From positions 19,292 to 76,688 of the forward strand of contig DOZK01000020.1 of assembly GCA_003518045.1 (NCBI GenBank): 57,397 nt of DNA, written 5' to 3'. Within the stretch, counting starts at the first letter, position 1, and each line of letters begins with the position of its first letter. Under the pieces are notes generated by a model that searched no databases, had not been told where the DNA came from, and saw nothing but the letters and a program-made list of their open reading frames with translations. Both the position numbers and the translations under genes were made by a program. Shown here piece by piece: positions 39,073 through 56,958 of the stretch. The stretch is from Candidatus Nomurabacteria bacterium (GTDB lineage: Bacteria > Patescibacteriota > Minisyncoccia > Phycocordibacterales > UBA5272).

Positions 39073-39612
39073 TTAAGAACGGTCGTTTATTTCTTGTTGA
39101 CTCTTTTTATATTTTTCAAATAAATCAACCAAAGTTAAAAACTCACCCAAGCATTCTCTCCTTTTCTTTAAGAATGTTATAGTAATTTCTGAAATAAAAA
39201 GATTTTCCAAGTCTAAATATTCTCCAGCTTCTTTGTATTTTTTTAGAATATCTTTTGCTTTATTTTTATTATAGCCTGCAGAATAAGCGTCTGAGTTATT
39301 CAAGGTATTTAATATTACACACTCTAAATACGGAGATATTTCAATTAAGGTGATTTTATTTTCTAAAGCCTTTAATCTCAACTCATCTGATATTTTAGGT
39401 GTGGCATCTACTACACAATATTTTTCGTATTCACCAAGTACATTAATACATTTTCGTAAAACTTCTTCAGCCGAGCCACCTTGCCCACCTTGGACTGAAA
39501 ACTGTCTGTTACAACCATAAGCAACTTTAATCGCATTAACAAAATACTTATCAGACACACCCTCACAATAAATTAATATCTGTGGGGTATAGATTTTTTT
39601 AGATATGCTCAT
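39073..39612 (-). CDS. RloB-like / TOPRIM-like small protein (partner of the ATPase)
   Basis: 179 aa. ILIYCEGVSDKYFVNAIK resembles the RloB N-terminal ilivcEGekTE.nYf motif, and there is a downstream acidic motif YCVVDAT. It lies 6 nt downstream of the ATPase gene. Confidence 0.5.
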   Translation of the reverse strand: MSISKKIYTPQILIYCEGVSDKYFVNAIKVAYGCNRQFSVQGGQGGSAEEVLRKCINVLGEYEKYCVVDATPKISDELRLKALENKITLIEISPYLECVILNTLNNSDAYSAGYNKNKAKDILKKYKEAGEYLDLENLFISEITITFLKKRRECLGEFLTLVDLFEKYKKSQQEINDRS

Positions 39613-39618
39613 AAATTA

Positions 39619-40824
39619 TTATAATTTAGGAACGCCACCGTAATAGCCAGAAATATACCTGTTGTAGAAATTTTCTCCATTTCTAACATCTGAGCCAAAA
39701 TCATCAAGTCTACTTAATTCGGTTGCCCCGTCATCATTTTTCTCAGCTATGAATATTTGGTATTTATCTAACATATTCATGACGCTATGTGAATGAGAGC
39801 TGAATAATAGTTGGGCATTATTGACGTTCTTTTCTTCGTCCAAAAAGAGACTAACTAGTTCTGTGACTATTCTCGGGTGAAGATATGCATCCAGTTCATC
39901 TATAATTACAGGTGTTCCCTTCTGAAGAGCTGAAACAATTAAACGTAAATGTCCAATTAGTTTCTGTGTCCCTCTCGATGCGTCAGCCATATCACTTTCA
40001 TAAATTTTTCCTTTGAAAATATGTTTTTCCTTACTACTTTTTAATGAAAATTGGTTTGGGGATATCTCTGTTTTTTCGATAAACACCTCTTCAAGGCCTA
40101 AGTCATATTTTCTTAGAATTTCCTCAACATTACCCTTTAATTTTTTATCATTATCTAAAGCTATTAAATCAACGATACCGTTACTGTCAAAATTCCATCC
40201 AATAGATGGAACATTTGTTGAAACATTCCTCCAGTAGTTAGTAAGCTCAACTAATAGGGGAATATTTAAGATTACACCAATACTAAAGATGCTAATGTCA
40301 CTTCTTTGGACAATATCAATTTCAGTCGGGAAACCTTTAAGATTTGATTTTATTAAATACTTAGCAAGCTCACCGCTAAACTCTCTAGAAAAGACAGTGG
40401 CCGTACCAGTTTTAATTGTCGCGTCCTTTGTTTGTTTTAGGATTTCACTTAAAATCTTATCTCTTGATAAAGAGATGTTATATTCGTATCTAGTATTATC
40501 TTTTTCAAAGACTATTTCAAAACTTGTGATTTCCTCACTATCAAAAAATTTTTTGTATAAGTTTTTGAAAGCAGTGTTTTCTTGTTTTAAGATTAAAGAT
40601 TGTAAGAACGCAAAAGCTTTGAGTATATTTGTTTTACCCGATGCATTTGCCCCAACCAGCATTCCTAATTTGGATACTCTATCTATAACAGAATTGGAAT
40701 ATCCAAAATTGTCAGGAGCCTGTTTGCCTACTGACAGATTAAGAACCTGCTCATTTTTTATTGAATAAAAATTACGTACTTTTAATGAAATTATCATATA
40801 TTTATTGTCGTGTAATTGTATCAA
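39619..40824 (-). CDS. AAA_21/ABC-type ATPase (AbiLi/RloA/AriA-like)
   Basis: Walker A GANASGKTNILKAFAF, Walker B/D-loop PVIIDELDAYLHP, and an H-loop region LLFSSHSHSV. The track start is TTG; an ATG at 40797 (MIISLKVRNFYSIK) is the more likely start. Confidence 0.7.
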   Translation of the reverse strand: MIQLHDNKYMIISLKVRNFYSIKNEQVLNLSVGKQAPDNFGYSNSVIDRVSKLGMLVGANASGKTNILKAFAFLQSLILKQENTAFKNLYKKFFDSEEITSFEIVFEKDNTRYEYNISLSRDKILSEILKQTKDATIKTGTATVFSREFSGELAKYLIKSNLKGFPTEIDIVQRSDISIFSIGVILNIPLLVELTNYWRNVSTNVPSIGWNFDSNGIVDLIALDNDKKLKGNVEEILRKYDLGLEEVFIEKTEISPNQFSLKSSKEKHIFKGKIYESDMADASRGTQKLIGHLRLIVSALQKGTPVIIDELDAYLHPRIVTELVSLFLDEEKNVNNAQLLFSSHSHSVMNMLDKYQIFIAEKNDDGATELSRLDDFGSDVRNGENFYNRYISGYYGGVPKL

Positions 40825-41860: not shown

Positions 41861-43576
41861 ATGAATTCCTACAAAGATATATTTGAAGTGCTTAAAAGTA
41901 AGGTAAGTGAGGGTGCTGTCTTTTCTTTATCTCAACCAGAAGATGCTCTGCATGGTGATTTTGCAACGAATATTTCTTTTATTCTTGCGAAAGACAAAGG
42001 TGGCTCTCCAAAATCTGTAGCTGAAGAATTGGTACCCGTTTTACAAGAAGAACTAATTGATATTGTAGAAAAGATAGAAGTAGCTGGTCCGGGGTTTATT
42101 AATTTCTTTTTGAAAGATGAAATTAGAACAGATGAAGTCAAAGAATTAGCAGAAGGGGCTGTTGTAATTTCTGAAAATAAAGGAAAGGTAATGGTGGAAT
42201 ATACTGACCCAAATTGTTTTAAAGTTTTTCATATTGGACACTTGATGGCAAATGCAATAGGGGAAGCAACTGCAAGATTATATGAGGCAAGTGGTTATGA
42301 TGTCATGAGAGTTTGTTATCCATCAGATATTGGTAGAAATGTTGCTATGGGTGTTTGGGGTGTAATGCAAAAAGAAAATGAAAAACCAAAAGCTGATGCA
42401 GAACTTAAAGATAAGATTTCCTTTTTGGGAATGTGTTATGCCTTTGCAAATGGTGAATTTGAAAGTAATGAAAAATCAAAAGCATCCATTGCAGAAGTTA
42501 ATAAAGCAATTTACGAAGGAACTGACCTGCCTACCGGCGAGGCAGGCGTAAAAGTTATGGAAGTGTATGCGGAGGGGAGAGCCTTATCATTAGAATATTT
42601 TGATAAACTTTATGAAAAATTAGGAACGACTTTTGATAAAACTATTTTTGAATCTGAAGTTGCAGAACCTGGGGCAGAAATTGTAAAAGCAAATATGGGA
42701 AAAATATTTGAAGAGTCAGATGGTGCTGTTGTTTATAAAGGGGAGCAAGATGGATTACATACGAGAGTATTTTTAACAACACAAGGACTTCCAACATATG
42801 AAGCAAAAGAGTTAGGAAATTATGAAAAGAAATTAGAGAGTTTACCCGAGGCTTCTTTTTATGTAGTTATTACTGCGAATGAACAAAATGAATATTTTAA
42901 AGTTGTAAATAAAGTTACACAAAAAATTCATCCAGAATTAACAGATAAACTTGTACATATTGGACACGGCATGATGAGACTACCATCGGGAAAGATGGCA
43001 TCACGAACTGGAAATGTTATTGGAGCGGAAGATTTGCTAGATATGATTACTGAAAAGCTAAAAGAAAAATTGGCTGATAAAGTTGTAGCATTTTCGGATA
43101 GCACACAATTATTAAATGATATTGCGGTTGGTGCGATAAAGTTTTCTATTTTAAAACAAGCCCCAGGCGGAGATATTGTTTTTGATTTTGATAAATCAAT
43201 TTCTTTTGAAGGGGACTCAGGGCCATATTTGCAATATACTCACGCGAGAATTTGTACGCTTTTAGAAAAGGCGAAAGAAGCAGATATAAATACAGAATCT
43301 TATGTTGTCGAAAATCCTGAAAGAGAATTAGAGCAAGTTTTAATTGGTTACAGGCAGACGCTCGAAAAATCTTTTAAAGATTTAGGTCCGCATCATATTG
43401 TTCAATATTTACTTTCACTTACAAGAGCATTCAATGCTATGTACGGACGTACACAAATTGTTGATGTGAATAATAAAGAGAAGAGTGCTTATTATGTGAT
43501 GCTTGCAACTGCTACACAAAAGATTTTAGCTCATGGTTTGCATACGTTAGGAATTAAAGCCCCAGAGAGAATGTGA
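41861..43576 (+). CDS. argS: arginine--tRNA ligase
   Basis: 571 aa. EYTDPNCFKVFHIGHL (HIGH-type), a DALR anticodon-binding C-terminus (GAIKFSILK...) and a terminal ...ERM. Confidence 0.9.
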   Translation: MNSYKDIFEVLKSKVSEGAVFSLSQPEDALHGDFATNISFILAKDKGGSPKSVAEELVPVLQEELIDIVEKIEVAGPGFINFFLKDEIRTDEVKELAEGAVVISENKGKVMVEYTDPNCFKVFHIGHLMANAIGEATARLYEASGYDVMRVCYPSDIGRNVAMGVWGVMQKENEKPKADAELKDKISFLGMCYAFANGEFESNEKSKASIAEVNKAIYEGTDLPTGEAGVKVMEVYAEGRALSLEYFDKLYEKLGTTFDKTIFESEVAEPGAEIVKANMGKIFEESDGAVVYKGEQDGLHTRVFLTTQGLPTYEAKELGNYEKKLESLPEASFYVVITANEQNEYFKVVNKVTQKIHPELTDKLVHIGHGMMRLPSGKMASRTGNVIGAEDLLDMITEKLKEKLADKVVAFSDSTQLLNDIAVGAIKFSILKQAPGGDIVFDFDKSISFEGDSGPYLQYTHARICTLLEKAKEADINTESYVVENPERELEQVLIGYRQTLEKSFKDLGPHHIVQYLLSLTRAFNAMYGRTQIVDVNNKEKSAYYVMLATATQKILAHGLHTLGIKAPERM

Positions 43577-43883: not shown

Positions 43884-46800
43884 ATGAACGAAAACAACAA
43901 ACAAAAAACAATATCAGAAAAAGAGCAAGAGATTTTAAATTTCTGGCAGGAAAATAAAATCTTTGAAAAATCAATTGAAACTCCAGCTGGTGAAAAAGCC
44001 AAAGGAGATTTCTCTTTTTATGATGGCCCACCATTTGCAACAGGGCTACCACACTTTGGCCATATTCTTGCGGGAACAATAAAAGATGCAATTCCTCGTT
44101 ATCAAACGATGAATGGTAAAAGTGTTCGTCGTAAATGGGGATGGGACTGCCACGGTCTTCCAATTGAAAATTTGATTGAGAAAAAATTAGGACTAAAAAG
44201 TAAAAAAGATATTGAAGATTTTGGTGTTGGAAAATTTAATAAAGATGCGAATGACAGTGTTCTTCAATATGAAGAAGAGTGGAAAAAAGTAATGCCAAGA
44301 TTAGGCAGATGGGCAGATATGGAACATCCATATAAAACAATGGACGCGACTTATACAGAAAGTATTTGGTGGTCATGGAAAACTTTATATGAAAAAGGTC
44401 TTGCTTATGAGGGGAATAAAATGATGCATATTTGTCCACGTTGTGAGACGCCACTTGCTCAATCAGAAGTTGGTCTTGAATATCATGATGTTACGGATTT
44501 ATCTGTAACAGCAAAGTTTGAACTAGTAGATGAGCCGGGGACTTTTGTTTTAGCGTGGACTACAACGCCGTGGACATTACCAGGAAATGTAGCTCTTGCT
44601 CTCAGTAAAGACGCCGAGTATGTAAAAGTCTTATCAAAAGAAGAGGGGAGTACAGAGCAAGAAGTAAGTAAATACATTGTTGCAAAAAGTCGACTAGAGG
44701 AGGTTTTTAAGGGTAAGGAATATGAAATAGTTGAAGAATTTAAAGGAGAGAAATTAGTTGGCAAATCATATAAACCACTATTCCCATATTTTGAAGATAA
44801 AGAAATTGAGAATAAAGAAAATATTTGGAAAATTTGGCATGCGGATTTTATTACTCTTGATACCGGTACTGGTATTGCTCATGAAGCACCAGCATTCGGT
44901 GCGGAAGATATGGAACTTGCAAAGGCAAATAATATTCCTGTAATTAAGCATGTAAAAATGGATGGAACTTTTACAGCGGACGTTACAGATTTTGCTGGAA
45001 TGAAAGTAAAAGTAAAAGATGATACTCAATCGGCTGACATTGAAATAATAAAATGGCTAGCACACAATGGAGAACTTTTTGAAAAGCATAAAATAATTCA
45101 CTCATACCCACTTTGTTGGAGATGTAAAACCCCGTTACTTAACTATGCGACATCAAGTTGGTTTGTTGATGTTCCAAAAATGAAAGATAGATTAATTGAA
45201 GAAAATAAAAAAATTATTTGGGTGCCAGAGCATATTCGAGATGGGCGATTTGGAAAATGGCTAGAGGGTGCGCGTGAATGGGCGGTCTCACGTACTCGTT
45301 ATTGGGGTGCGCCACTTCCAGTTTGGAAAAATGAAGATGGGGAGATGATTATAATTGGCTCTTTAAAAGAATTAGCTGAGAAAAATAAACAACAACCAAA
45401 AAATATTTATTATGTAATGCGTCATGGAGAAGCCGAAAGTAATGTAGCAGGGATAATTGACTCAGATGGAAGTGAAACTAATAATCTTACAGAAAAAGGA
45501 ATAGCACAGGCAAAACTAAGCGCAGAAAATCTTAAAGATAAAAATATTGATGTGATTTTTACTTCGCCATTTTTAAGAACAAAGAAAACAGCAAAAATAG
45601 TTTCAGATATTTTAGGTGGTGTTGAAATTATTGAAGATATGCGTCTTAAGGAAGTCAATGTAGGTATTTATGACAAAAGAAAAGTGTCTGACTATTTGAA
45701 AGAAGTTGGAAAATTAAAATATCTTACACTGGATAATCGTGTTAAAGGAGGGGAAACACACAGAGAGGTTATGAATCGTATGGTGCAGGTGTTTATGGAA
45801 ATGGAAGAAAAATATGAAGGGAAAAATATTTTATTTGTTACCCACGGTGGGCCAGCCAGGATGTTTGTAGCTGGTGCGCATAATCTTACAGAAGAAGAAT
45901 TACTTATTGATGAAGCAACTGATGAAGCAAAACTTTATCCAAAAAACGCAGAAGTTGTAAAAGTCTCGCCATTAATAATTCCTCGTGATGAAACTGGGGC
46001 TGTTAATCTTCATCGTCCTTATATTGATAACACTGAACTATTAGTTGATGGGAAAACATATAAACGTATTCCGGATGTATTTGATTGTTGGTATGAATCA
46101 GGTTCAATGCCATTTGCTCAACTTCACTATCCGTTTGAAAATAAAGAAATTTTTGCAAAAAATTATCCGGCAGATTTTATTGCCGAAGGTTTAGACCAAA
46201 CACGCGGATGGTTTTATTCACTTATCAATTTAGGTGTAGGATTATTTGATAAAGCTCCGTATAAACATGTGGCAGTGAATGGACTTATTATGGCAGAGAC
46301 GGGTATGAAGTTATCAAAGAGTGAGAAAAATTATACAGACCCAATGGAGCTTGTAGAAAAGTATGGGGCGGACTCTATGCGTTACGCACTGTTATCTAGT
46401 CCAGTTGTAAAAGGGGAGAATTTACTTTTTGGTGATGATATTGTTTCTGATATTTATAAAAAGTTAGTTTCTCGATTATTAAACGTGCTTTCATTATATG
46501 AAATGAATAAGCCTGAAAATGTTATTGCAAAAAATACATCAAGTGATGTATTAGATAGATGGATGATTTCTAGGGTGCATGAATTATTGCGTGATGCGAC
46601 AAAAGGATATGACTCATATAAATTAGATGAAGCGACTCGTGGGACAGGAGATTTAATCGATGATATTTCTGTTTGGTATACAAGAAGATCACGCGAAAGA
46701 TTAAAGGGTGATATGGGTGAGGAAAGTCAAATGCGTGCTTACGTTACTTTGACTTATGTATTACAAACATTAGCAAAAACTATGGCACCAGTTATGCCAT

Positions 46801-47345
46801 TCACTGCTGAAATTGTTTATAAAGCTTTAAATGGTGAAAGAGAGTCTGTCCATCTTGAAAGTTGGCCAACAGTTGGAGTTATTGAAGATGAAGTTATAAA
46901 AGAAATGAAAAATGTAAGAGATATAGTTACGGTTGCTCTTTCACTTCGAACACAATCTAAAATCGCAGTTCGTCAGCCACTTCAAAAAATTACTCTGAAA
47001 GATGAGATAAAAAGCGAGTATCACCAAATAATTTTGGACGAACTTAATGTTAAAGAAATCGCATTTGCTAATTCTTTAACTGAGGTCTGCGTATTAGATA
47101 CAGAAATTACTGAAGAATTAAAATTAGAAGGGGACGTGAGAAATCTTATGCGTGCCGTACAAGATGCTCGTAAAGAAAAAGGATTAACTCCGCAAGATTC
47201 TATTATTCTTTTGACAGATTATTCTGTGCCAGAAAAGTTTAAAGAAGTATTAATGAATACTTGTAAAATTAGTGAAATAAAAGGAGGAAGCGGAAAATAC
47301 AAAGCTGAGACCGGAGTAGGGGAGGTGTCGTTTGATATAAATTAA
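43884..47345 (+). CDS. ileS: isoleucine--tRNA ligase (type 2-like) with an inserted histidine-phosphatase domain
   Basis: HIGH (PHFGHILAG), WDCHGLP, an editing domain, WAVSRTRYWGAPLPVW, and KMSKS (MKLSKSEKN). About 195 extra aa with RHG/PGAM motifs sit between IIIGSLKEL and NLHRPYID. Confidence 0.93.
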   Translation: MNENNKQKTISEKEQEILNFWQENKIFEKSIETPAGEKAKGDFSFYDGPPFATGLPHFGHILAGTIKDAIPRYQTMNGKSVRRKWGWDCHGLPIENLIEKKLGLKSKKDIEDFGVGKFNKDANDSVLQYEEEWKKVMPRLGRWADMEHPYKTMDATYTESIWWSWKTLYEKGLAYEGNKMMHICPRCETPLAQSEVGLEYHDVTDLSVTAKFELVDEPGTFVLAWTTTPWTLPGNVALALSKDAEYVKVLSKEEGSTEQEVSKYIVAKSRLEEVFKGKEYEIVEEFKGEKLVGKSYKPLFPYFEDKEIENKENIWKIWHADFITLDTGTGIAHEAPAFGAEDMELAKANNIPVIKHVKMDGTFTADVTDFAGMKVKVKDDTQSADIEIIKWLAHNGELFEKHKIIHSYPLCWRCKTPLLNYATSSWFVDVPKMKDRLIEENKKIIWVPEHIRDGRFGKWLEGAREWAVSRTRYWGAPLPVWKNEDGEMIIIGSLKELAEKNKQQPKNIYYVMRHGEAESNVAGIIDSDGSETNNLTEKGIAQAKLSAENLKDKNIDVIFTSPFLRTKKTAKIVSDILGGVEIIEDMRLKEVNVGIYDKRKVSDYLKEVGKLKYLTLDNRVKGGETHREVMNRMVQVFMEMEEKYEGKNILFVTHGGPARMFVAGAHNLTEEELLIDEATDEAKLYPKNAEVVKVSPLIIPRDETGAVNLHRPYIDNTELLVDGKTYKRIPDVFDCWYESGSMPFAQLHYPFENKEIFAKNYPADFIAEGLDQTRGWFYSLINLGVGLFDKAPYKHVAVNGLIMAETGMKLSKSEKNYTDPMELVEKYGADSMRYALLSSPVVKGENLLFGDDIVSDIYKKLVSRLLNVLSLYEMNKPENVIAKNTSSDVLDRWMISRVHELLRDATKGYDSYKLDEATRGTGDLIDDISVWYTRRSRERLKGDMGEESQMRAYVTLTYVLQTLAKTMAPVMPFTAEIVYKALNGERESVHLESWPTVGVIEDEVIKEMKNVRDIVTVALSLRTQSKIAVRQPLQKITLKDEIKSEYHQIILDELNVKEIAFANSLTEVCVLDTEITEELKLEGDVRNLMRAVQDARKEKGLTPQDSIILLTDYSVPEKFKEVLMNTCKISEIKGGSGKYKAETGVGEVSFDIN

Positions 47346-47397
47346 TTATTCTTCAGTTTTTCACTGGACCAATTCTTAATTACAAAACTCCAACGCA

Positions 47398-47498
47398 TGT
47401 CATTCCAAACTTGATTTGGAATCCAGTGTCCACTGAAATTATAAGGCACTGGACCCGCCTTGCCGGCGAGGCAGGTCCTGATTTTCATCAGGATGACA
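47398..47498. repeat. TGTCA multi-hairpin repeat, four-hairpin variant (copy 6)
   Basis: TGTCA-[TTCCAAA cttga TTTGGAA]-[TCCAGTG ...18 nt... CACTGGA]-[cccGCCTTG ccgg CGAGGCagg]-[TCCTGAT tttc ATCAGGA]-TGACA. Confidence 0.85.
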
Positions 47499-47574
47499 CG
47501 GGGAAACATTGGTGTCGTAATTGCCTTAAAAGTAAAGAAGTTGCAATTCTATATGTTTTTGTTACTATGAAAAT

Positions 47575-47820
47575 ATGAGTAAAATAACATTAAAAAATAA
47601 CAGAGAATATACTGCTTTTTTTGAGGAAAATGAACTCGGAGGATATACAATTACTGTGCCTGCACTTCCTGGGCTTGTTACAGAAGCAAAAGATATGAAG
47701 CAAGCAAAGGTTGTGTTACAAGATGCCATTACTTGTTATATTGAGGGGCTAAAGAAATCAAAAGTAGAAATACCAAAAGAAAGTTTTGTTGCAAGTATGC
47801 GTTTGCAGTTTGCTGTGTAA
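47575..47820 (+). CDS. hicB: HicB-family antitoxin
   Basis: 81 aa. YTAFFEENELGGYTITVPALPGLVTEAKDMKQA...DAI..YIEGL is the UPF0150/HicB N-domain pattern. Confidence 0.75.
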   Translation: MSKITLKNNREYTAFFEENELGGYTITVPALPGLVTEAKDMKQAKVVLQDAITCYIEGLKKSKVEIPKESFVASMRLQFAV

Positions 47821-47825
47821 TTCGT

Positions 47826-48044
47826 ATGCCAAAACTTCCAATTCTTACACCAAAAAAGTTAGTAAAAATTTTGTGTAAAATTGGTTTTTATATTCATCAT
47901 CAAACAGGGAGCCACATTAACTTACGCCATAGTATTAAAAATAATTTACATGTGGTTATTCCTTATCATACGAGAGATTTAGCTCCAAAAACTCTCAAGT
48001 CAATTATTATGCAAGCAGATATTTCCATAGATGATTTATTATAA
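47826..48044 (+). CDS. hicA: HicA-family mRNA interferase toxin
   Basis: 72 aa. LTPKKLVKIL.K.GF...HQTGSHINLRH...VVIPYHTRDLAPKTLKSII. Confidence 0.8.
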   Translation: MPKLPILTPKKLVKILCKIGFYIHHQTGSHINLRHSIKNNLHVVIPYHTRDLAPKTLKSIIMQADISIDDLL

Positions 48045-48054
48045 TTAAAAAACC

Positions 48055-49737
48055 ATGCCACCAAAAAAATTTGAAGGAAAGTTTGGAATACCACAATCTA
48101 ATTCTATTGACTCAGAGCTTACCTCCGCACTCTATAGACTTCCAGACTCAATAAGTCTGCCTTTTATAGAAAGCATGACAGAAGATATCGTTAGTAAAGT
48201 AAATAAAAGATTAGAAGAAATGTATGAGGAATCTTTATTAGGAAATGATAAAGGTATTGCAAATGTGAGAATTAGACGTGCTCTTTCTGATGAACAAAGA
48301 AAAATACTTCAACTCAAACTTACAAGGCACTTTGAAGACAATGGTGAATCTGCAAAAATAGACGTACCAGTATGTGTTGATGCACTCATAGAGTCACCAA
48401 GATTTTTAGAGAGTATGAAAGGAAGTATGGACAAACTTTTTGCAATGCATGAAATGAAGATATTACAAAAGATTGCCGAATTAAGACGTAAACGAGCAGA
48501 GATGAGTGGAGATGAATCTTTGTATAATCCTTATGAAAATCTTTTTGAAACAAGCAGTGGCAAATATTGTATGGCAAGACTTTTGAATATGCCTCATTTA
48601 GAAGAAGAGTCTGAATATATGGATCATTGTGTTGGAACAAGTACAAGCTATGTTAACAAAATCAAGAAAGGTGAGGTCGAGATACTTTCTTTTCGAGACA
48701 CATCAACTAATAATCCAATCGCTACTATTGAGTATGATCTTAAGAGTAAAAGATTACTACAGATAAAATTAATGAGTGATAAGTTGCCAAAGTTAAGCGA
48801 CTCATTTTCTGCTGATTTATTAGAAGCAATAGAAAAATTGGAGACGACAACAAATGATCTAGGTGTTCCTAGAGTTATTGAGGGTAGTCTAGCTAAGGAC
48901 ATGAAGACACTCCTATCTTTACAAGAGAAATCCAAAAAACAAGAAGTATATACAAGAGATGACCTTTTATTTCTATATGAAATTAGTTCACCTATCCAAT
49001 GTTTTGATAGTGGAAGAGATCCACTTATTGATGAGTTATTGCGAAAAAGAAACCGCCAAGAAGACATACAACTCCTTTGTAATTGTGAGTCACAGTTTAT
49101 TGCATTTGACTTCATTGATATCAATGAACAAACTCAAGTTTTCTGTGAAGACACAGGGAAGAAAATCACTTTTGTTGATTTTCGTCTAGAAGCAAACCAA
49201 AAGAAACTCCCGCAACTTCTCGAACTCGCACAGCACATCAAAGAAAGTGGTAGTCCCGCGAGACCGGATATGTCATTTGAAGGTGGAATAGTAACTATAG
49301 ATATATCAGAAGAAAAATTAAAAGATACAAAGACAGTCTTACAATCATACAAAGAAGCAGACAGTAGCTCTCCATCATGGGTATGGGATGAATGGATAAA
49401 CGCACCCTATACTAAACCAAAATTACCACTAGAAACTATTATTTTGTCATATAACAAAGATACAAACACAAGAGAATCATCAGATAAAATTGTATCAGAT
49501 ATGAATAGATTAGGATTAAGACCTGCAACATTAGAAGAACTTATTGCTCTTGGAGTAATAAAACCAGAATTTAATAAACGAAGTGGCTCTTACCTTGTTG
49601 AACTAACAAAATATTCTTTGGATGGTGGTTCCTACGTTCCCTGCGTGGACTGGGGTGGCGACGAGCGTGACTTGGTCGGGTATGAGTGGGGGAGTAGGTG
49701 GATTGACAGGAATCGTTTTGTTTGCGTTCGCAAATAG
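48055..49737 (+). CDS. DGR target protein 2 (variable C-terminus)
   Basis: 560 aa. The last ~40 aa (SLDGGSYVPCVDWGGDERDLVGYEWGSRWIDRNRFVCVRK) are encoded by VR2, and the ..RFVCVRK ending is typical of CLec-fold DGR targets. A central MDHCVGTSTSYVNKIKKGEVEILSFRD block is reminiscent of PcfJ-like domains (weak call). Confidence 0.8.
   Translation: MPPKKFEGKFGIPQSNSIDSELTSALYRLPDSISLPFIESMTEDIVSKVNKRLEEMYEESLLGNDKGIANVRIRRALSDEQRKILQLKLTRHFEDNGESAKIDVPVCVDALIESPRFLESMKGSMDKLFAMHEMKILQKIAELRRKRAEMSGDESLYNPYENLFETSSGKYCMARLLNMPHLEEESEYMDHCVGTSTSYVNKIKKGEVEILSFRDTSTNNPIATIEYDLKSKRLLQIKLMSDKLPKLSDSFSADLLEAIEKLETTTNDLGVPRVIEGSLAKDMKTLLSLQEKSKKQEVYTRDDLLFLYEISSPIQCFDSGRDPLIDELLRKRNRQEDIQLLCNCESQFIAFDFIDINEQTQVFCEDTGKKITFVDFRLEANQKKLPQLLELAQHIKESGSPARPDMSFEGGIVTIDISEEKLKDTKTVLQSYKEADSSSPSWVWDEWINAPYTKPKLPLETIILSYNKDTNTRESSDKIVSDMNRLGLRPATLEELIALGVIKPEFNKRSGSYLVELTKYSLDGGSYVPCVDWGGDERDLVGYEWGSRWIDRNRFVCVRK
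49615..49733 (+). repeat. DGR variable repeat VR2
   Basis: Gap-free 119-nt alignment to 50038-50156 with 15 mismatches: 14 opposite TR adenines and one opposite a TR thymine (TR position 50068). Confidence 0.85.
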
Positions 49738-49813
49738 TACTTAGGTTTTAGTTACTTTACTTTTGCTTTAGAACTTTTGACTTAAACAAATTTTAGAAGT
49801 ATCACGTATACTA

Positions 49814-50235
49814 GAACATGAGAGTAGATAATGAGTGTATGGATATTTTTATACAACATCGAAATCAGTAGGGTATAGATGAGAATTCAAGTACAAGAAT
49901 AATGTATAGGAAGAGTATCTATATTTGTTTCAAAAAAGAAATCTACTTGGCGTAGTTATGTTAAGTATTATTATACTAGCTTAAATTCAACATATGGTTG
50001 CGACTGTGTGTGGTGGTATGCATGCATAACTACGAAATCTTTGGATGGTGATTCCTACGTTCCCTACTTGAACTGGAATGGCGACAAGCGTAACTTGAAC
50101 AGGAATGAGTGGAGGAATAGGTGGAATGACAGGAATCGTTTTGTTTGCGTTCGCAATTTAATTTCTTTACATAACACGACCTCCGAGTCCAAGACATGAG
50201 TCTGCTGACTCAGGAGGTCGTGTTATGTTTTTTTG
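49814..50235 (+). ncRNA. putative stand-alone DGR template RNA 2 (leader + TR2 + terminator)
   Basis: TATACT box at 49807-49812, then the conserved 51-nt leader at 49820-49870 and TR2. A long hairpin follows, ACATAACACGACCTCC(gagtc)...(gactc)aGGAGGTCGTGTTATGT plus a T7 run (50169-50235). Confidence 0.5.
50038..50156 (+). repeat. DGR template repeat TR2
   Basis: The adenine-rich partner of VR2. In the VR frame it reads SLDGDSYVPYLNWNGDKRNLNRNEWRNRWNDRNRFVCVR, with many AAY Asn codons. Confidence 0.85.
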
Positions 50236-50245
50236 TATGAATTTG

Positions 50246-50319
50246 TGTCATTCCCGCGAAGGCGGGAATCCAGTGTCCAAATGAGTATGGGCCTGGATTC
50301 CCGCCTTCGTGGGAATGAG
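50246..50319. repeat. TGTCA multi-hairpin repeat (copy 7, partly degenerate)
   Basis: TGTCA-[TTCCCGC gaag GCGGGAA]-[TCCAG ...19 nt... CTGGA]-[TTCCC gccttcgt GGGAA]-TGAG. Confidence 0.7.
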
Positions 50320-50329
50320 TTACGAAAAA

Positions 50330-50725
50330 CTAATTAAGCTGTTTTACAACTTGATTATGCCAACCACCGAGCATCTTACCTATTTCGTGTAACTTTTCGC
50401 TGAGTGCTATATATTGTTTTGTTTCAAAGGCTTTTATAGTATGTGCCACACGAAGCATTACTTTTGCAGTATCGAGTAGTTGTATCGCTTTCTGAATATA
50501 TTGTAGCTTCTGTTCTTTCTTCACAAAAAGTGCCGATGAAGTATATTGGATAACTTCACATAGGAGAGTATCTATTTTTACACCGAGCGAGTATCTATGA
50601 ACTTTTGGAAAGTGTATGATGTAGGAATGCCAAAGTACATAAGCAACTTCGAGTTTGAGGATAAGAGGAGGAGTACTGATTTCGTGGGGGGGGGGGCGAT
50701 ATTCATAGCAAAAAGTGTAACACAC
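50330..50725 (-). CDS. avd: DGR accessory variability determinant (Avd, four-helix-bundle family)
   Basis: 131 aa. FPKVHRYSLGVKIDTLLCEVIQ...LDTAKVMLRVAH...LSEKLHEIGKMLGGW fits Avd / 23S-IVS-type four-helix-bundle proteins. It is divergent from the RT. The only ATG start places a C11 tract (RPPPH) inside the 5' end. Confidence 0.75.
   Translation of the reverse strand: MCYTFCYEYRPPPHEISTPPLILKLEVAYVLWHSYIIHFPKVHRYSLGVKIDTLLCEVIQYTSSALFVKKEQKLQYIQKAIQLLDTAKVMLRVAHTIKAFETKQYIALSEKLHEIGKMLGGWHNQVVKQLN
50686..50696. repeat. G11/C11 homopolymer tract
   Basis: Eleven consecutive G on the plus strand. The tract lies within avd codons 10-13 and 62 nt upstream of the annotated RT start. Confidence 0.95.
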
Positions 50726-50757
50726 AGTATGATGATATTGTTACTTTTGAAAAGCTA

Positions 50758-51579
50758 TTGGAATCATGGAATGATTTTGTGAGTGGGAAAAGAAAGAGAG
50801 AAGATGTGAATACATTTGCATTACGGCTGTCTGATAATTTGATTGACCTTTTTTATGAACTAAAAAGCGATGTGTACATTCATGGAAATTACGAAGAGTA
50901 TGTTATTTGCGACCCGAAGAAGCGTATCATTCATAAAGCAAGTGTGAGAGATAGAGTAGTGCATCGACTACTCTATAATGCTTTGTATAGCTATTTCGAT
51001 AGACGATACATCTATGACTCATATAGTTGTCGAATTGGAAAAGGAACACATAAAGCACAAGCTAGATTTAGATATTTTGTAAATGCTGTAAGTAAAAATT
51101 ATACGAAACCATGTTATGTTCTCAAGTTTGATATTAAGAAATGTTTTGAAAGTATTGATGCTGACATTCTTAAAAATATACTTTTCACACATATACAAGA
51201 TGAGCGATTAAAAAGTCTTGTCTTTAAAATTATTGATAGTTTTCCGAAAGGATTGCCACTAGGAAATTTAACTTCACAGTTATTCATTAACATCTATCTT
51301 CATGAATTAGATTGGTATGTAAAGCAGACACTTCATTGCACGCATTATTTTAGATATGCGGATGATATGGTTGTTATTTCTCATGATAAAAAAGAATTAG
51401 AAAATTTCTACAAGCAATTACAAATTTTCTTGAAACAGGAACTTCATCTGACAACACATAAAAAAGTAATTAGTAGTATCTACTCAGGAATTGATATTCT
51501 CGGGTTAGTTTTCTTTGCAAAGTATCAGAGATTGCGAAGGAGTACAGAGAGGAGAAAGAATGCGAGAGGTGGTAAATAA
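50758..51579 (+). CDS. DGR-type reverse transcriptase
   Basis: RT motifs: KKRIIHKASVRDRVVHRLL, FDIKKCFESID, the DGR-diagnostic LPLGNLTSQLFINIYL ([LIV]GxxxSQ), and YADDMVVIS. The annotated start is TTG, and homology (YDDIVTFEKLL) continues upstream to the stop at 50677 without an ATG. Confidence 0.85.
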   Translation: MESWNDFVSGKRKREDVNTFALRLSDNLIDLFYELKSDVYIHGNYEEYVICDPKKRIIHKASVRDRVVHRLLYNALYSYFDRRYIYDSYSCRIGKGTHKAQARFRYFVNAVSKNYTKPCYVLKFDIKKCFESIDADILKNILFTHIQDERLKSLVFKIIDSFPKGLPLGNLTSQLFINIYLHELDWYVKQTLHCTHYFRYADDMVVISHDKKELENFYKQLQIFLKQELHLTTHKKVISSIYSGIDILGLVFFAKYQRLRRSTERRKNARGGK

Positions 51580-51698
51580 CAAACATACCGTTTTGCGTTT
51601 ATTAACTAACAACTATAAACTAGTAACTATTGAATGTAATTGTATTCTGTATTATCTGGTATCTAAAATCTAATGTCTAACGTCCACTATCTATCCCC

Positions 51699-52253
51699 AT
51701 GTCTATCGAAAAATACGTAACCAAAGCCTTAGTAATAACTTCTTTTGACCAAAGCGAAAATGATCGTGTGTATAAAATGTTCACACGCGAATTTGGTTTG
51801 ATTATTGCTCACGCTAAAAGTATTCGTAAATTAGAAAGTAAATTACGCGCGCATATTCTTCCACGAACAGTTAGCTTTGTTACCTTGGTAAAAGGAAAAG
51901 AAGTTTGGCGCCTCGTTGGTGCTGAAGAACAAAAAGCATCATCTACAATTATTCATGAAGTTACAGAATTAATTTCTCGATTTATTCACGGTGAAGAACC
52001 ACATAAAGTTCTTTATGATAGAGTCGAAGAATTTCTCGAAAAGTCAGATGCTTATGACAAACAAAAAGCAAGAATTTTATTTTATTATATTTTGCTTGTT
52101 GAGCTCGGTTATGCAGATGCAAAAGTTATTGGTGCAAAAAGTATAAAAGAATATAGAGATTGGAATATAGATGATTTATACACACATTTTCTTTTATCTG
52201 AAAAACAAATTAAGGAGCATATAAGAAACGTTGTTAAGGATATACAATTATAA
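51699..52253 (+). CDS. recO: short RecO-like DNA repair protein
   Basis: 184 aa. N-terminal OB-fold pattern (ALVITSFDQSENDRVYKMFTREFGLIIAHAKSIRK..SKLR..L.P). Confidence 0.55.
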   Translation: MSIEKYVTKALVITSFDQSENDRVYKMFTREFGLIIAHAKSIRKLESKLRAHILPRTVSFVTLVKGKEVWRLVGAEEQKASSTIIHEVTELISRFIHGEEPHKVLYDRVEEFLEKSDAYDKQKARILFYYILLVELGYADAKVIGAKSIKEYRDWNIDDLYTHFLLSEKQIKEHIRNVVKDIQL

Positions 52254-55491: not shown

Positions 55492-56958
55492 ATGAATAAA
55501 CCATTTTATATAACAACGACACTTCCATATGTAAATGCAGAGCCACATTTGGGTCATGCGATGGAATTTGTGCGGGCGGATGTCATCACAAGATATAAAA
55601 AGTTACAAGGCTATGATGTATTTTTTAATACAGGAATGGATGAACACGGCACTAAGATTTTAGAAGGGGCAATAAAAGAGGGAATAGATGTACAAGAATA
55701 TGTTGATAGAAATTCAGCACGATTTAAAGAGTTATATCCCAAGCTCGGTATTACGAACGAAATTAATTTTATTCGCACAACAGAAGAGCGCCATATAAAA
55801 GCAGCAGAAGAGATGTGGAAGAGATGTAATGACAACGGCTACATTTATAAAAAAGAATATGAAGCGAAATATTGCGTTGGTTGCGAACTTTATAAAACAG
55901 ATAGTGAATTAGTTGACGATAAATGTCCTATTCATCCGAATCGAGAAATAGAAATTATTAAAGAAGAAAATTATTTTTTTGCTTTTTCAAAAGTTGAAAG
56001 TAAATTGCGCGAACTTTATGAAAAGAATCCAACTTTAGTTATTCCAGATTTTCGTTTTAATGAAATTAAAGCTTTCTTAGATAGGGGATTGGAAGATTTT
56101 TCTATTTCACGTTTGAAAACAAAGATGCCATGGGGAGTGCCTGTACCAGGGGATGATGAGCATGTAATGTATGTTTGGTTTGATGCCTTAACAAGTTATA
56201 TTTCTACACTTGAGTGGCCTGAAGCGGGGGATTTTGAAAAATATTGGGAACAATCTGGAGCCGAGAAACGAGAGGTAATTCAATATTGTGGAAAGGATAA
56301 TCTTCGTCAGCAATCTCTAATTTGGCAGGGAATGCTTTTAGCTGCAGGACTTCCAACTACTACAAATATTATTATTGATGGATTTATAATTTCCGGCGGG
56401 CAAAAAATGAGTAAGTCCATTGGAAATGTAATTAATCCATTTGATATTCTTGAAATGTTTAAAGAGTTAACTGATTATCCGGAAGATGTTCTTCGTTTTA
56501 TTTTGCTCCATGAAGTGCCGAGTTTTGAAGATGGAGATTTAACTGTTGAATCAATTAAAATTGCTTATACAGCATATTTAGCAAATGGAATTGGGAATTT
56601 AACGAGTAGAATAATGAGAATGTTAAATACATATAATATTGATAATATAGAAATCCCAGCAAATAGTTGGACTAATGAATTTATAGCTACATTAGAATCT
56701 TATGACACGAACAAGGGGATTAAATATGTAATGCATGAAGTAAAGTCTCTTGATGAATATATTCAGTCTACAGAACCTTTTAAACTTATTAAAACAGATA
56801 AAGAAAAAGCTGAAGTTATTCTTAGGGAGTGTGCGGTTAGATTGTATGGGATAGGAAGAATGCTTAATCCTTTCATGCCGAAAACTGGAGCTATGATAAA
56901 AAGTTTAGTAAAGGAAAATAAAATGCCAGAAAAGCCACTTTTCAATAGACTTCCATAA
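55492..56958 (+). CDS. metG: methionine--tRNA ligase (short form)
   Basis: TLPYVNAEPHLGHA (HIGH), WGVPVPGD, and KMSKS (QKMSKSIGNV). Confidence 0.95.
   Translation: MNKPFYITTTLPYVNAEPHLGHAMEFVRADVITRYKKLQGYDVFFNTGMDEHGTKILEGAIKEGIDVQEYVDRNSARFKELYPKLGITNEINFIRTTEERHIKAAEEMWKRCNDNGYIYKKEYEAKYCVGCELYKTDSELVDDKCPIHPNREIEIIKEENYFFAFSKVESKLRELYEKNPTLVIPDFRFNEIKAFLDRGLEDFSISRLKTKMPWGVPVPGDDEHVMYVWFDALTSYISTLEWPEAGDFEKYWEQSGAEKREVIQYCGKDNLRQQSLIWQGMLLAAGLPTTTNIIIDGFIISGGQKMSKSIGNVINPFDILEMFKELTDYPEDVLRFILLHEVPSFEDGDLTVESIKIAYTAYLANGIGNLTSRIMRMLNTYNIDNIEIPANSWTNEFIATLESYDTNKGIKYVMHEVKSLDEYIQSTEPFKLIKTDKEKAEVILRECAVRLYGIGRMLNPFMPKTGAMIKSLVKENKMPEKPLFNRLP

What the first reader, a model, noticed from the sequence alone, without database searches (positions are those of the whole stretch)
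45405..46000. Histidine-phosphatase (PGAM-like) domain inserted inside isoleucyl-tRNA synthetase
In type-2 IleRS the segments WAVSRTRYWGAPLPVW...IIGSLKEL and LHRPYID...DCWYESGSMPFA are separated by only about 15 residues. Here about 195 aa are interposed, and they carry every hallmark of the histidine phosphatase superfamily. The hallmarks are YVMRHGEAESN (the RHG catalytic His), LTEKGIAQA...IFTSPFLRTKKTA, GGETHREV and ILFVTHGG. The reading frame is continuous and both IleRS halves are intact, so this is a nested domain rather than a gene fusion artefact. A phosphatase embedded in the synthetase catalytic body could act on a nucleotide or aminoacyl-adenylate-related metabolite, or could be regulatory. 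I am not aware of this architecture.
Basis: partly seen in the sequence, partly recalled or inferred. Interest (0 to 1): 0.65.

Follow-up and report, generated by a model that had tools for sequence, protein, structure and literature searches.

The report
Active phosphatase nested inside isoleucyl-tRNA synthetase
This uncultivated small-genome bacterium carries a complete, apparently active histidine phosphatase inserted in a surface loop of its isoleucyl-tRNA synthetase, a widespread pairing mentioned once in 2013 whose purpose is still unknown.

Summary
ORF 43884-47345 (1153 aa) is a type-2 IleRS with intact HIGH, KMSKS and editing motifs. About 197 residues (aa ~501-697) form a His_Phos_1 domain (Pfam E=7e-35; AlphaFold pLDDT 94.7) inserted in the variable CP3 subdomain.

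It is not an assembly artefact. All 120 closest homologues and at least 29 Patescibacteria species genomes carry it, and the catalytic residues (R513, H514, R565, E590, H654) are invariant. dN/dS is 0.13-0.16.

It is phosphatase-type, not mutase-type: the dPGM-specific segments are missing.

In a sister IleRS clade the same phosphatase is a free ~195-aa gene overlapping the ileS start by 4-8 nt (6 of 8 contexts). Other IleRS carry two copies or a second insertion site. ValRS carries it at two further sites, and a Sua5 fusion exists.

The architecture is not unreported: Kantor et al. [quoted passage not shown] No functional study was found.

The substrate is unknown. My best reading is an autonomous phosphomonoesterase selected to be tethered to IleRS or ValRS.

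The parts
43884..47345 (+). ileS gene encoding the 1153-aa IleRS with the nested histidine phosphatase (end includes the stop codon)
43884..45383 (+). IleRS N-terminal part (aa 1-500): first half of the Rossmann fold with HIGH (HFGH, aa 57-60, nt 44052-44063), CP core, CP1 editing domain (WTTTPWTLPGN aa 225-235; GTGIAHEAPAFGAEDME aa 328-344), CP2 and the first half of CP3
   Evidence: domain names from PMC7191050 and PMC7955072
45270..45308 (+). CP2-CP3 linker AREWAVSRTRYWG (aa 463-475). It is homologous to the yeast IleRS segment that lines the tRNA 3'-end / reveromycin pocket, and the insert starts about 25 residues after it
45384..45974 (+). Nested histidine phosphatase (aa ~501-697), collinear with a whole free-standing ~195-aa phosphatase from its start to its last beta-strand
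45420..45425 (+). R513-H514 of the RHG motif. H514 is the predicted phospho-accepting nucleophile
45576..45578 (+). R565, the second phosphate-binding arginine (SPFLRT motif)
45651..45653 (+). E590, the predicted general acid (Asp in the free-standing operon family)
45843..45845 (+). H654, the second catalytic histidine (THGG motif)
45975..47342 (+). IleRS C-terminal part (aa 698-1153): return linker PRDETGAVNLHRPYID, second half of CP3, second half of the Rossmann fold (DVFDCWYESG), KMSKS (KLSKS aa 809-813, nt 46308-46322), anticodon-binding domain and C-terminal DUF5915 domain
41861..43576 (+). argS (ArgRS), a conserved upstream neighbour of ileS in this lineage. It is context, not part of the feature

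Best explanation
The gene encodes a bifunctional protein. It is a complete type-2 IleRS with intact synthetic and editing sites, and a whole PhoE/PspA-type histidine phosphatase is nested in its CP3 subdomain between the two halves of an ancestral zinc knuckle.

Shown:
- The phosphatase is an autonomously folding domain with a full catalytic set (R513/H514 nucleophile, R565, E590 acid, H654).
- It is under purifying selection.
- It is inherited across a large part of the Patescibacteria.
- It belongs to a phosphatase family that is otherwise encoded as a separate gene overlapping the ileS start codon, or is inserted at other surface sites of IleRS and ValRS, sometimes in 2-4 copies that all keep the catalytic residues.

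Inferred:
- The domain works as an independent phosphomonoesterase through a phospho-histidine intermediate. It is not a mutase.
- Selection favours its co-production and physical tethering with IleRS or ValRS.
- Tolerance of several attachment points and of extra copies points to a diffusible small substrate linked to the aminoacylation cycle or to nucleotide turnover, rather than to a precisely docked macromolecule.

The substrate itself is not identified.
For: - Domain and fold: Pfam E=6.8e-35. The domain-only AlphaFold model has pLDDT 94.7 and pTM 0.91. Foldseek matches compact phosphatases (9mmh, 6s2q, PspA, PhoE, Rv2419c, CobC) at TM 0.70-0.77.
- Catalytic residues are invariant in 121 of 121 close homologues. 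The full six-position signature (R, H, N, R, E, H) is found in 137 of 168 domain copies, and nearly all the rest differ only at the Asn position or carry Asp for Glu; both copies of the two-domain IleRS keep it.
- dN/dS of the insert is 0.13-0.16.
- Not an artefact: all 120 best hits carry PF00300, from independent assemblies, and 29 GTDB species genomes have it at the same site.
- The free-standing protein is collinear with the insert.
- Operon link: the phosphatase gene overlaps the start of an insert-free ileS by 4-8 nt in L030, L036, L039 (two tandem copies), L040, L044 and L046, which is 6 of 8 contexts.
- Independent insertions: a second IleRS site, tandem copies, ValRS at the GWP|FHPTS loop and at CP3, and a Sua5 fusion.
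- Not a mutase: the dPGM equivalog score is far below its cut-off, the mutase-specific residues and the ~29-aa segment are absent, and related genomes encode iPGM.
- IleRS is intact: HIGH, KMSKS and the editing motifs are present and invariant.
Against: - No substrate or activity evidence exists. The small-molecule inference rests only on architecture.
- All operon examples fall in one IleRS clade, so they may reflect a single historical event rather than repeated selection.
- The ValRS insert is patchy among close relatives. In one comparison the IleRS insert has higher synonymous divergence than its host (dS 0.52 against 0.24). Both would also fit a mobile, exchangeable domain.
- The domain tree is unresolved.
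- The full-length model is poor outside the insert (pLDDT 69, pTM 0.52), so the geometry relative to the synthetic site is unknown.
Confidence: 0.6

Rival explanations
1. A hitchhiking housekeeping phosphatase. The domain has a general metabolite-phosphatase role unrelated to aminoacylation. It sits in IleRS or ValRS only because surface loops such as CP3 tolerate insertions and an essential, constitutively expressed gene is a safe place in a minimal genome.
For: - CP3 is known to be structurally variable.
- The same IleRS lineage also accepted NUDIX, GNAT and a Y1-transposase-like domain, and NCBIfam has an ileS_w_GNAT model.
- ValRS relatives gain and lose the domain freely.
- Two free-standing copies lie in other contexts.
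- From my own knowledge, ileS operons with unrelated genes (ribF, lspA) are well known in other bacteria.
Against: - Among the 150 best relatives of the domain, the only fusion hosts are IleRS (about 80 proteins), ValRS and Sua5.
- There are at least four or five independent insertion sites in just two paralogous synthetases.
- The overlapping-gene arrangement is kept over 57-97% phosphatase identity.
- Catalytically intact copies are multiplied within one synthetase.
Confidence: 0.25
2. A macromolecule-directed phosphatase. It either removes a 2'/3'-phosphate from damaged tRNA 3' ends before charging, or acts as a protein phosphatase that reverses inhibitory phosphorylation of the synthetase, as a counter to HipA-type kinases.
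For: - The insert begins about 25 residues after the CP2-CP3 linker that lines the tRNA 3'-end pocket.
- From established knowledge, the superfamily includes protein and phospho-histidine phosphatases (SixA, Sts, PGAM5); there are weak SixA-model hits.
- All hosts (IleRS, ValRS, Sua5) are tRNA-linked enzymes.
Against: - The several different attachment sites, including the junction before the anticodon-binding domain, and the 2-4 copies per protein argue against a precisely positioned active site.
- The SixA score is below its cut-off.
- There is no geometric evidence.
Confidence: 0.1
3. The domain is the cell's cofactor-dependent phosphoglycerate mutase, supplying a glycolytic step from within IleRS.
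For: The best NCBIfam hit is dPGM_arch. Kantor et al. called the SR1 domains 'phosphoglycerate mutase domains'.
Against: - The score of 96.6 bits (whole protein; 101.5 for the insert alone) is far below the cut-off of 225.
- The closest structures are phosphatases.
- Related Patescibacteria encode iPGM.
Confidence: 0.04
4. An assembly chimera, an intein or another non-functional insertion.
For: None beyond the unusual architecture.
Against: - Hundreds of independent assemblies share it, on contigs up to 532 kb.
- The reading frame is continuous and composition is uniform.
- Pfam finds no Hint or intein domain, and there are no splice-junction residues.
- Purifying selection and invariant catalytic residues.
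Confidence: 0.01

Closest known systems
SR1 (Absconditabacteria) IleRS noted by Kantor et al. 2013, mBio (PMC3812714)
   Same: A Patescibacteria IleRS interrupted by histidine-phosphatase ('phosphoglycerate mutase') domains. Relatives of that multi-insert type appear here as P0196 (NUDIX + His_Phos) and as P0174, P0177 and P0123 (two His_Phos at two sites).
   Different: The window protein has a single insert in CP3 and no NUDIX domain. The 2013 paper gives one descriptive sentence, with no analysis of site, catalytic residues, distribution or function.
Compact bacterial histidine phosphatases: PhoE (1h2e), PspA phosphoserine phosphatase (4ij5), Aquifex riboflavin-pathway HFP (9mmh), Rv2419c, CobC
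   Same: The same fold and catalytic residues, a similar ~200-aa size and no mutase tail.
   Different: Identity is only 20-24%. All family-specific NCBIfam cut-offs are missed, so no substrate can be transferred. Those enzymes are free-standing, and this one is nested in a synthetase.
Type-2 (eukaryote-like) IleRS, e.g. P. megaterium IleRS2 (8c8u), T. thermophilus (1ile), yeast (7d5c)
   Same: Full-length homology apart from the insert (E about 1e-190 to 1e-210), with the same motifs and domain order.
   Different: About 197 extra residues in CP3. The CP3 zinc-knuckle cysteines, kept in T. thermophilus, P. megaterium and some nested relatives, are lost here.
Other enzymes fused to His_Phos domains: PFK-2/FBPase-2, mycobacterial RNase H/acid phosphatase Rv2228c, TFIIIC tau55 (from established knowledge)
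   Same: A histidine phosphatase covalently joined to a second activity. The NCBIfam RNase H/acid phosphatase model gives a sub-threshold hit.
   Different: Those are end-to-end fusions. Here the phosphatase is nested inside another domain, and the partner is an aminoacyl-tRNA synthetase.
IleRS with a GNAT domain (NCBIfam NF040702 ileS_w_GNAT)
   Same: An IleRS carrying an extra catalytic domain, recognised by curators as an exception family. P0204 combines GNAT with His_Phos.
   Different: A different inserted domain and position. The window protein scores 306 bits against a cut-off of 1999.

Membership tests
Isoleucyl-tRNA synthetase (TIGR00392), type 2 | Equivalog HMM score above the curated cut-off | tested here: met
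   844.1 bits against 621.4. Type-2/eukaryote-like structures match at about 1e-190 to 1e-210, against 1e-85 for type-1 S. aureus.
Isoleucyl-tRNA synthetase (TIGR00392), type 2 | Class I signature motifs HIGH and KMSKS, and CP1 editing motifs | tested here: met
   HFGH aa 57-60, KLSKS aa 809-813, WTTTPWTLPGN aa 225-235, GTGIAHEAPAFGAEDME aa 328-344. All are invariant or nearly so in homologues.
Isoleucyl-tRNA synthetase (TIGR00392), type 2 | Isoleucylation of tRNA-Ile | not testable with these tools
   Biochemical assay needed.
Histidine phosphatase superfamily, branch 1 (PF00300) | Pfam gathering score | tested here: met
   120.9 bits against 21.7, E=6.8e-35.
Histidine phosphatase superfamily, branch 1 (PF00300) | Catalytic core: RHG nucleophilic His, two Arg, second His, acidic proton donor | tested here: met
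Histidine phosphatase superfamily, branch 1 (PF00300) | Alpha/beta fold of the superfamily | tested here: met
   Model pLDDT 94.7. Foldseek probability 1.00 and TM 0.70-0.77 to PhoE, PspA, 9mmh and others.
Histidine phosphatase superfamily, branch 1 (PF00300) | Phosphatase activity through a phospho-histidine intermediate | not testable with these tools
   Enzyme assay with an H514A control needed.
Cofactor-dependent phosphoglycerate mutase (dPGM) | Equivalog HMM cut-off | tested here: not met
   dPGM_arch scores 96.6 bits for the whole protein and 101.5 for the insert alone, against 225. The other dPGM models are far lower.
Cofactor-dependent phosphoglycerate mutase (dPGM) | Mutase-specific substrate residues (R90, Y92, R116/R117, N186) and the C-terminal tail | tested here: not met
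   EVNVG replaces ERHYG, the ~29-aa segment is absent, HGG replaces HGN, and there is no tail (reference sequence from memory, so indicative).
Phosphoserine phosphatase PspA / alpha-ribazole phosphatase CobC / SixA | Equivalog HMM cut-offs | tested here: not met
   Whole protein / insert alone: PspA 65.2 / 69.6 against 350; CobC 77.5 / 82.1 against 162.9; SixA 42.8 / 46.7 against 74.5.
Intein | Hint domain and splice-junction residues (Cys/Ser/Thr at position +1, terminal His-Asn) | tested here: not met
   No Hint or intein family in Pfam. The junctions read ...EKNKQQPKN and ...LIIPRDETG.
Mupirocin-resistance IleRS (MupA/MupB) and ileS_w_GNAT | NCBIfam exception-model cut-offs | tested here: not met
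   MupB 702.6 and MupA 655.7 against 1900; ileS_w_GNAT 306.1 against 1999.

The most novel reading that the evidence does not exclude
The phosphatase is a dedicated, previously unrecognised accessory activity of the class Ia synthetases IleRS and ValRS in Patescibacteria. It would process a phosphorylated species tied to the aminoacylation cycle: a nucleotide product or by-product, a phosphorylated adenylate-mimicking inhibitor, or a phosphorylated tRNA 3' end. Its repeated independent capture as a coupled gene, at CP3, at the Rossmann loop, at the anticodon-domain junction and in multiple copies would then reflect selection for this coupling. That would be a new kind of synthetase-associated catalytic module.
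Probability: 0.3. Interest if true: 0.8.

Novelty: new member of a known kind. Interest (0 to 1): 0.55.

Why it matters
Aminoacyl-tRNA synthetases rarely carry additional catalytic domains in bacteria, and a complete second enzyme nested inside the catalytic body is unusual. Here one phosphatase family has been joined to IleRS and ValRS many times and in several ways, across a huge uncultivated bacterial radiation with minimal genomes. That is the signature of a functional partnership nobody has characterised. Identifying the substrate could reveal a new housekeeping or protective step linked to tRNA charging, or a new route of nucleotide or phosphate economy in these symbiotic bacteria. Even if the coupling proves incidental, the system is a natural example of domain insertion into CP3 without loss of synthetase function, which is useful for engineering. 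The free-gene and nested forms give a ready-made experimental comparison.

Tried and rejected
- **Assembly chimera:** rejected by the breadth of independent assemblies.
- **Intein or self-splicing element:** no Hint domain or junction residues.
- **Known RNA leader upstream of ileS (T-box or other):** the Rfam gathering scan of the whole window found only tRNAs.
- **Mutase function:** HMM cut-offs and mutase-specific residues are not met.
- **Domain phylogeny, to decide between one insertion and many:** the NJ tree of 164 domain copies is unresolved, with inserted and free copies intermixed (the first attempt timed out).
- **Host tree, to decide which configuration is ancestral:** the adjacent-gene clade lies within the nested clades, but the tree is an unrooted NJ tree, so the direction is unresolved.
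- **Second phosphatase copy in the window:** none found.
- **Free phosphatase next to valS in HP-less ValRS relatives:** none found.
- **Literature:** six searches with various wordings found only the 2013 sentence. The microcin-C/HIT paper mentioning Parcubacteria gave no direct link.
- **Riboflavin-pathway lead from the top Foldseek hit:** not pursued, because identity is only 24% and the margin over other phosphatases is negligible.
Full report
**Observation.** The window has one continuous ORF at 43884-47345 (+), encoding 1153 aa. Pfam finds tRNA-synt_1 in two stretches (E=1.3e-131), Anticodon_1 and DUF5915. Between the two synthetase stretches it finds His_Phos_1 (PF00300) at aa 510-673, E=6.8e-35. 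NCBIfam's ileS equivalog scores 844 bits against a cut-off of 621. GC content and skews show no discontinuity at the boundaries.

**Where the insert sits.**
- Against P. megaterium IleRS2 (8c8u), query 498 aligns to chain 475 and query 706 to chain 485. About 9 residues there are replaced by about 207 here.
- Structure papers place this segment in the CP3 subdomain (yeast 459-526, C. albicans 473-534). They describe CP3 as differing in topology and zinc binding between IleRSs.
- The preceding CP2-CP3 linker (AREWAVSRTRYWG, aa 463-475) is the segment that lines the tRNA 3'-end / reveromycin pocket in yeast IleRS.
- Several relatives with the insert keep CxxC upstream and CxC/CxxC downstream of it (L011, L016, L021, L022, L024, L029). 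The phosphatase is therefore lodged between the halves of the CP3 zinc knuckle, and the window protein has lost these cysteines.
- HIGH (HFGH), KMSKS (KLSKS) and the CP1 editing motifs are intact and invariant among homologues.

**Is the insert real and functional?**
- All 120 best database hits (65-97% identity) carry PF00300. They come from JGI, ENA, NCBI and Logan assemblies, on contigs up to 532 kb, and are labelled Nomurabacteria, Parcubacteria, Pacebacteria or Gracilibacteria.
- A pattern scan of GTDB species genomes found 29 further Patescibacteria with a phosphatase at the same IleRS position. These include RAAC4_OD1_1, and insert identity ranges from 29 to 66%.
- R513, H514, N520, R565, E590 and H654 are invariant in 121 aligned sequences.
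- A domain-only AlphaFold model is very confident (pLDDT 94.7, pTM 0.91). In the otherwise poor full-length model (pLDDT 69) the insert is the best-predicted region.
- dN/dS of the insert against two close relatives is 0.13-0.16, compared with 0.03-0.11 for the synthetase body.
- A chimera, an intein or a decaying insertion are excluded.

**What kind of histidine phosphatase?**
- The closest solved relatives by sequence are PspA phosphoserine phosphatase, a 203-aa 'phosphoglycerate mutase' entry (9mmh), PhoE and CobC.
- By fold the closest are 9mmh (the Aquifex riboflavin-pathway phosphatase), mycobacterial hydrolase 1, PspA, PhoE, Rv2419c and CobC, at TM 0.70-0.77.
- Every family-specific NCBIfam model is far below its cut-off, so no substrate can be transferred.
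The mutase-specific ERHYG, the ~29-residue segment with R116/R117, HGN and the C-terminal tail are absent.
- Related Patescibacteria encode iPGM.
- I therefore classify it as a compact phosphatase-type member, not a mutase.

**Wider picture.** An exhaustive HMMER search with the insert found, among the best 150 cluster representatives, about 80 IleRS proteins or fragments carrying it and about 55 free-standing ~190-aa proteins. It also found unusual hosts:
- IleRS with two tandem copies in CP3 (P0251, P0128, P0146, P0205).
- IleRS with a second copy near aa 872, before the anticodon-binding domain (P0127, P0174, P0177, P0123).
- IleRS also carrying NUDIX (P0196), or a Y1-transposase-like domain plus GNAT (P0204).
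- ValRS (P0182/P0390, and P0121 with four copies).
- A Sua5/TsaC fusion (P0138).

137 of the 168 domain copies keep the full six-position signature R-H-N-R-E-H. Nearly all the others differ only at the Asn position or have Asp for Glu, and both copies of the two-domain IleRS keep the signature.

A search with ValRS P0390 showed that 32 of the 120 closest ValRS clusters list PF00300 (30 confirmed with my own HMM). They are interleaved with HP-less ValRS at 70-88% identity. ValRS has two recurrent sites. One is the GWP|FHPTS loop of the Rossmann fold (at least 20 clusters). The other is the CP3-equivalent position after WGHxIPVWY, which in P0406 and P0410 again lies between CxxC motifs. The family has thus entered two paralogous class Ia synthetases independently at four or five sites.

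**The operon link.**
- In L030 (Paceibacterota) a free 196-aa phosphatase, 38% identical to the insert, is collinear with it from the start codon to the last strand.
- That gene ends in ATGA, which overlaps the start of an insert-free ileS that keeps the zinc knuckle.
- Its homologues form a large family at 57-97% identity.
- In 6 of 8 distinct contexts the gene overlaps the ileS start by 4-8 nt, and L039 has two tandem copies. The two exceptions are L038 and L042.
- With the phosphatase masked, these IleRSs form one clade embedded among nested-type IleRSs in an NJ tree. The arrangement therefore probably arose once but has been kept over considerable divergence. Which state is ancestral is unresolved.

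**Mechanism (inference).**
- The domain should hydrolyse a phosphomonoester through phospho-H514, with E590 as the acid.
- Co-translation, covalent nesting, multiple attachment points and copy multiplication fit selection for co-localisation with IleRS or ValRS and for throughput. They do not fit one fixed geometry.
- That favours a diffusible small substrate. Candidates to test are AMP or other nucleotides, dinucleoside polyphosphates, a phosphorylated inhibitor, or PPi. PPi is less likely, given that RAAC4 has a membrane pyrophosphatase.
- A hitchhiking housekeeping phosphatase is the main rival. tRNA-end or protein dephosphorylation and a mutase role are less likely.

**Novelty.** Kantor et al. 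[quoted passage not shown] Database annotators label such proteins 'class I tRNA ligase family protein' or 'valyl-tRNA synthetase/broad specificity phosphatase PhoE'. No paper in the searchable library analyses them. The window protein is a new member of an already noticed but uncharacterised architecture. The operon/nesting relationship, the multiple independent insertion sites and the catalytic conservation appear not to have been described.

Noticed in passing
window ~47350-51690: In close relatives (L049, L050) ileS is followed directly by recO, a 623-aa CLIPPER-like gene and an AI-2E transporter. In the window those genes start at 51699, 52361 and 54436. The intervening ~4.3 kb therefore looks like a lineage-specific insertion, possibly a mobile or defence element. 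It holds a HicB-like antitoxin (47575-47820), a PcfJ-like protein (48055-49737), a small minus-strand ORF (50330-50725) and a reverse transcriptase (RVT_1, 50758-51579).
   Followed up: partly
window 45384-45974 compared with L049: Against the 97%-identical relative, the insert is much more diverged than the synthetase body even at synonymous sites: dS 0.52 against 0.24, and amino-acid identity 87% against 99%. This suggests recombinational replacement of the insert or a locally different mutation or selection regime. It is unexplained.
   Followed up: no
P0204 and P0196 (related IleRS proteins): P0204 is an IleRS with an in-frame IS200-like Y1 transposase domain (aa 340-461) in the CP1 region, plus His_Phos and a GNAT domain. 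P0196 is an IleRS with a NUDIX domain (aa 226-343) plus His_Phos. IleRS in this radiation seems to be a hotspot for domain insertion.
   Followed up: partly
P0138: A 387-aa fusion of Sua5/YciO/YrdC (the threonylcarbamoyl-AMP synthase family) with a His_Phos domain closely related to the IleRS insert. It is a third adenylate-forming, tRNA-linked host, seen on a single 3.7-kb contig only.
   Followed up: partly
L039 4400-5594 and L038 5001-7226: L039 has two tandem free phosphatase genes ahead of ileS, mirroring the tandem nested copies. In L038 the phosphatase sits next to the CLIPPER-like gene that normally follows ileS, as if ileS had been lost or moved from between them.
   Followed up: no
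L047 1-1544 and L048 1-2185: HP-less ValRS relatives have one or two iPGM (cofactor-independent phosphoglycerate mutase) genes 2-3 kb upstream of a valS-tyrS-argS cluster. The proximity is probably a coincidence, but it shows these genomes have a separate mutase.
   Followed up: no
window 41861-43576, 43884-47345 and 55492-56958: Three class I synthetase genes (argS, ileS, metS) lie within 15 kb. The argS-ileS neighbourhood is conserved in several related loci (L030, L040, L044, L049, L050).
   Followed up: partly
window 39619-40824 (-): An AAA_21 / AbiEii-like ATPase ORF (E=1.9e-29), followed on the minus strand by a 178-aa ORF with no Pfam family (39073-39612). It may be a defence or toxin-antitoxin module.
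   Followed up: no
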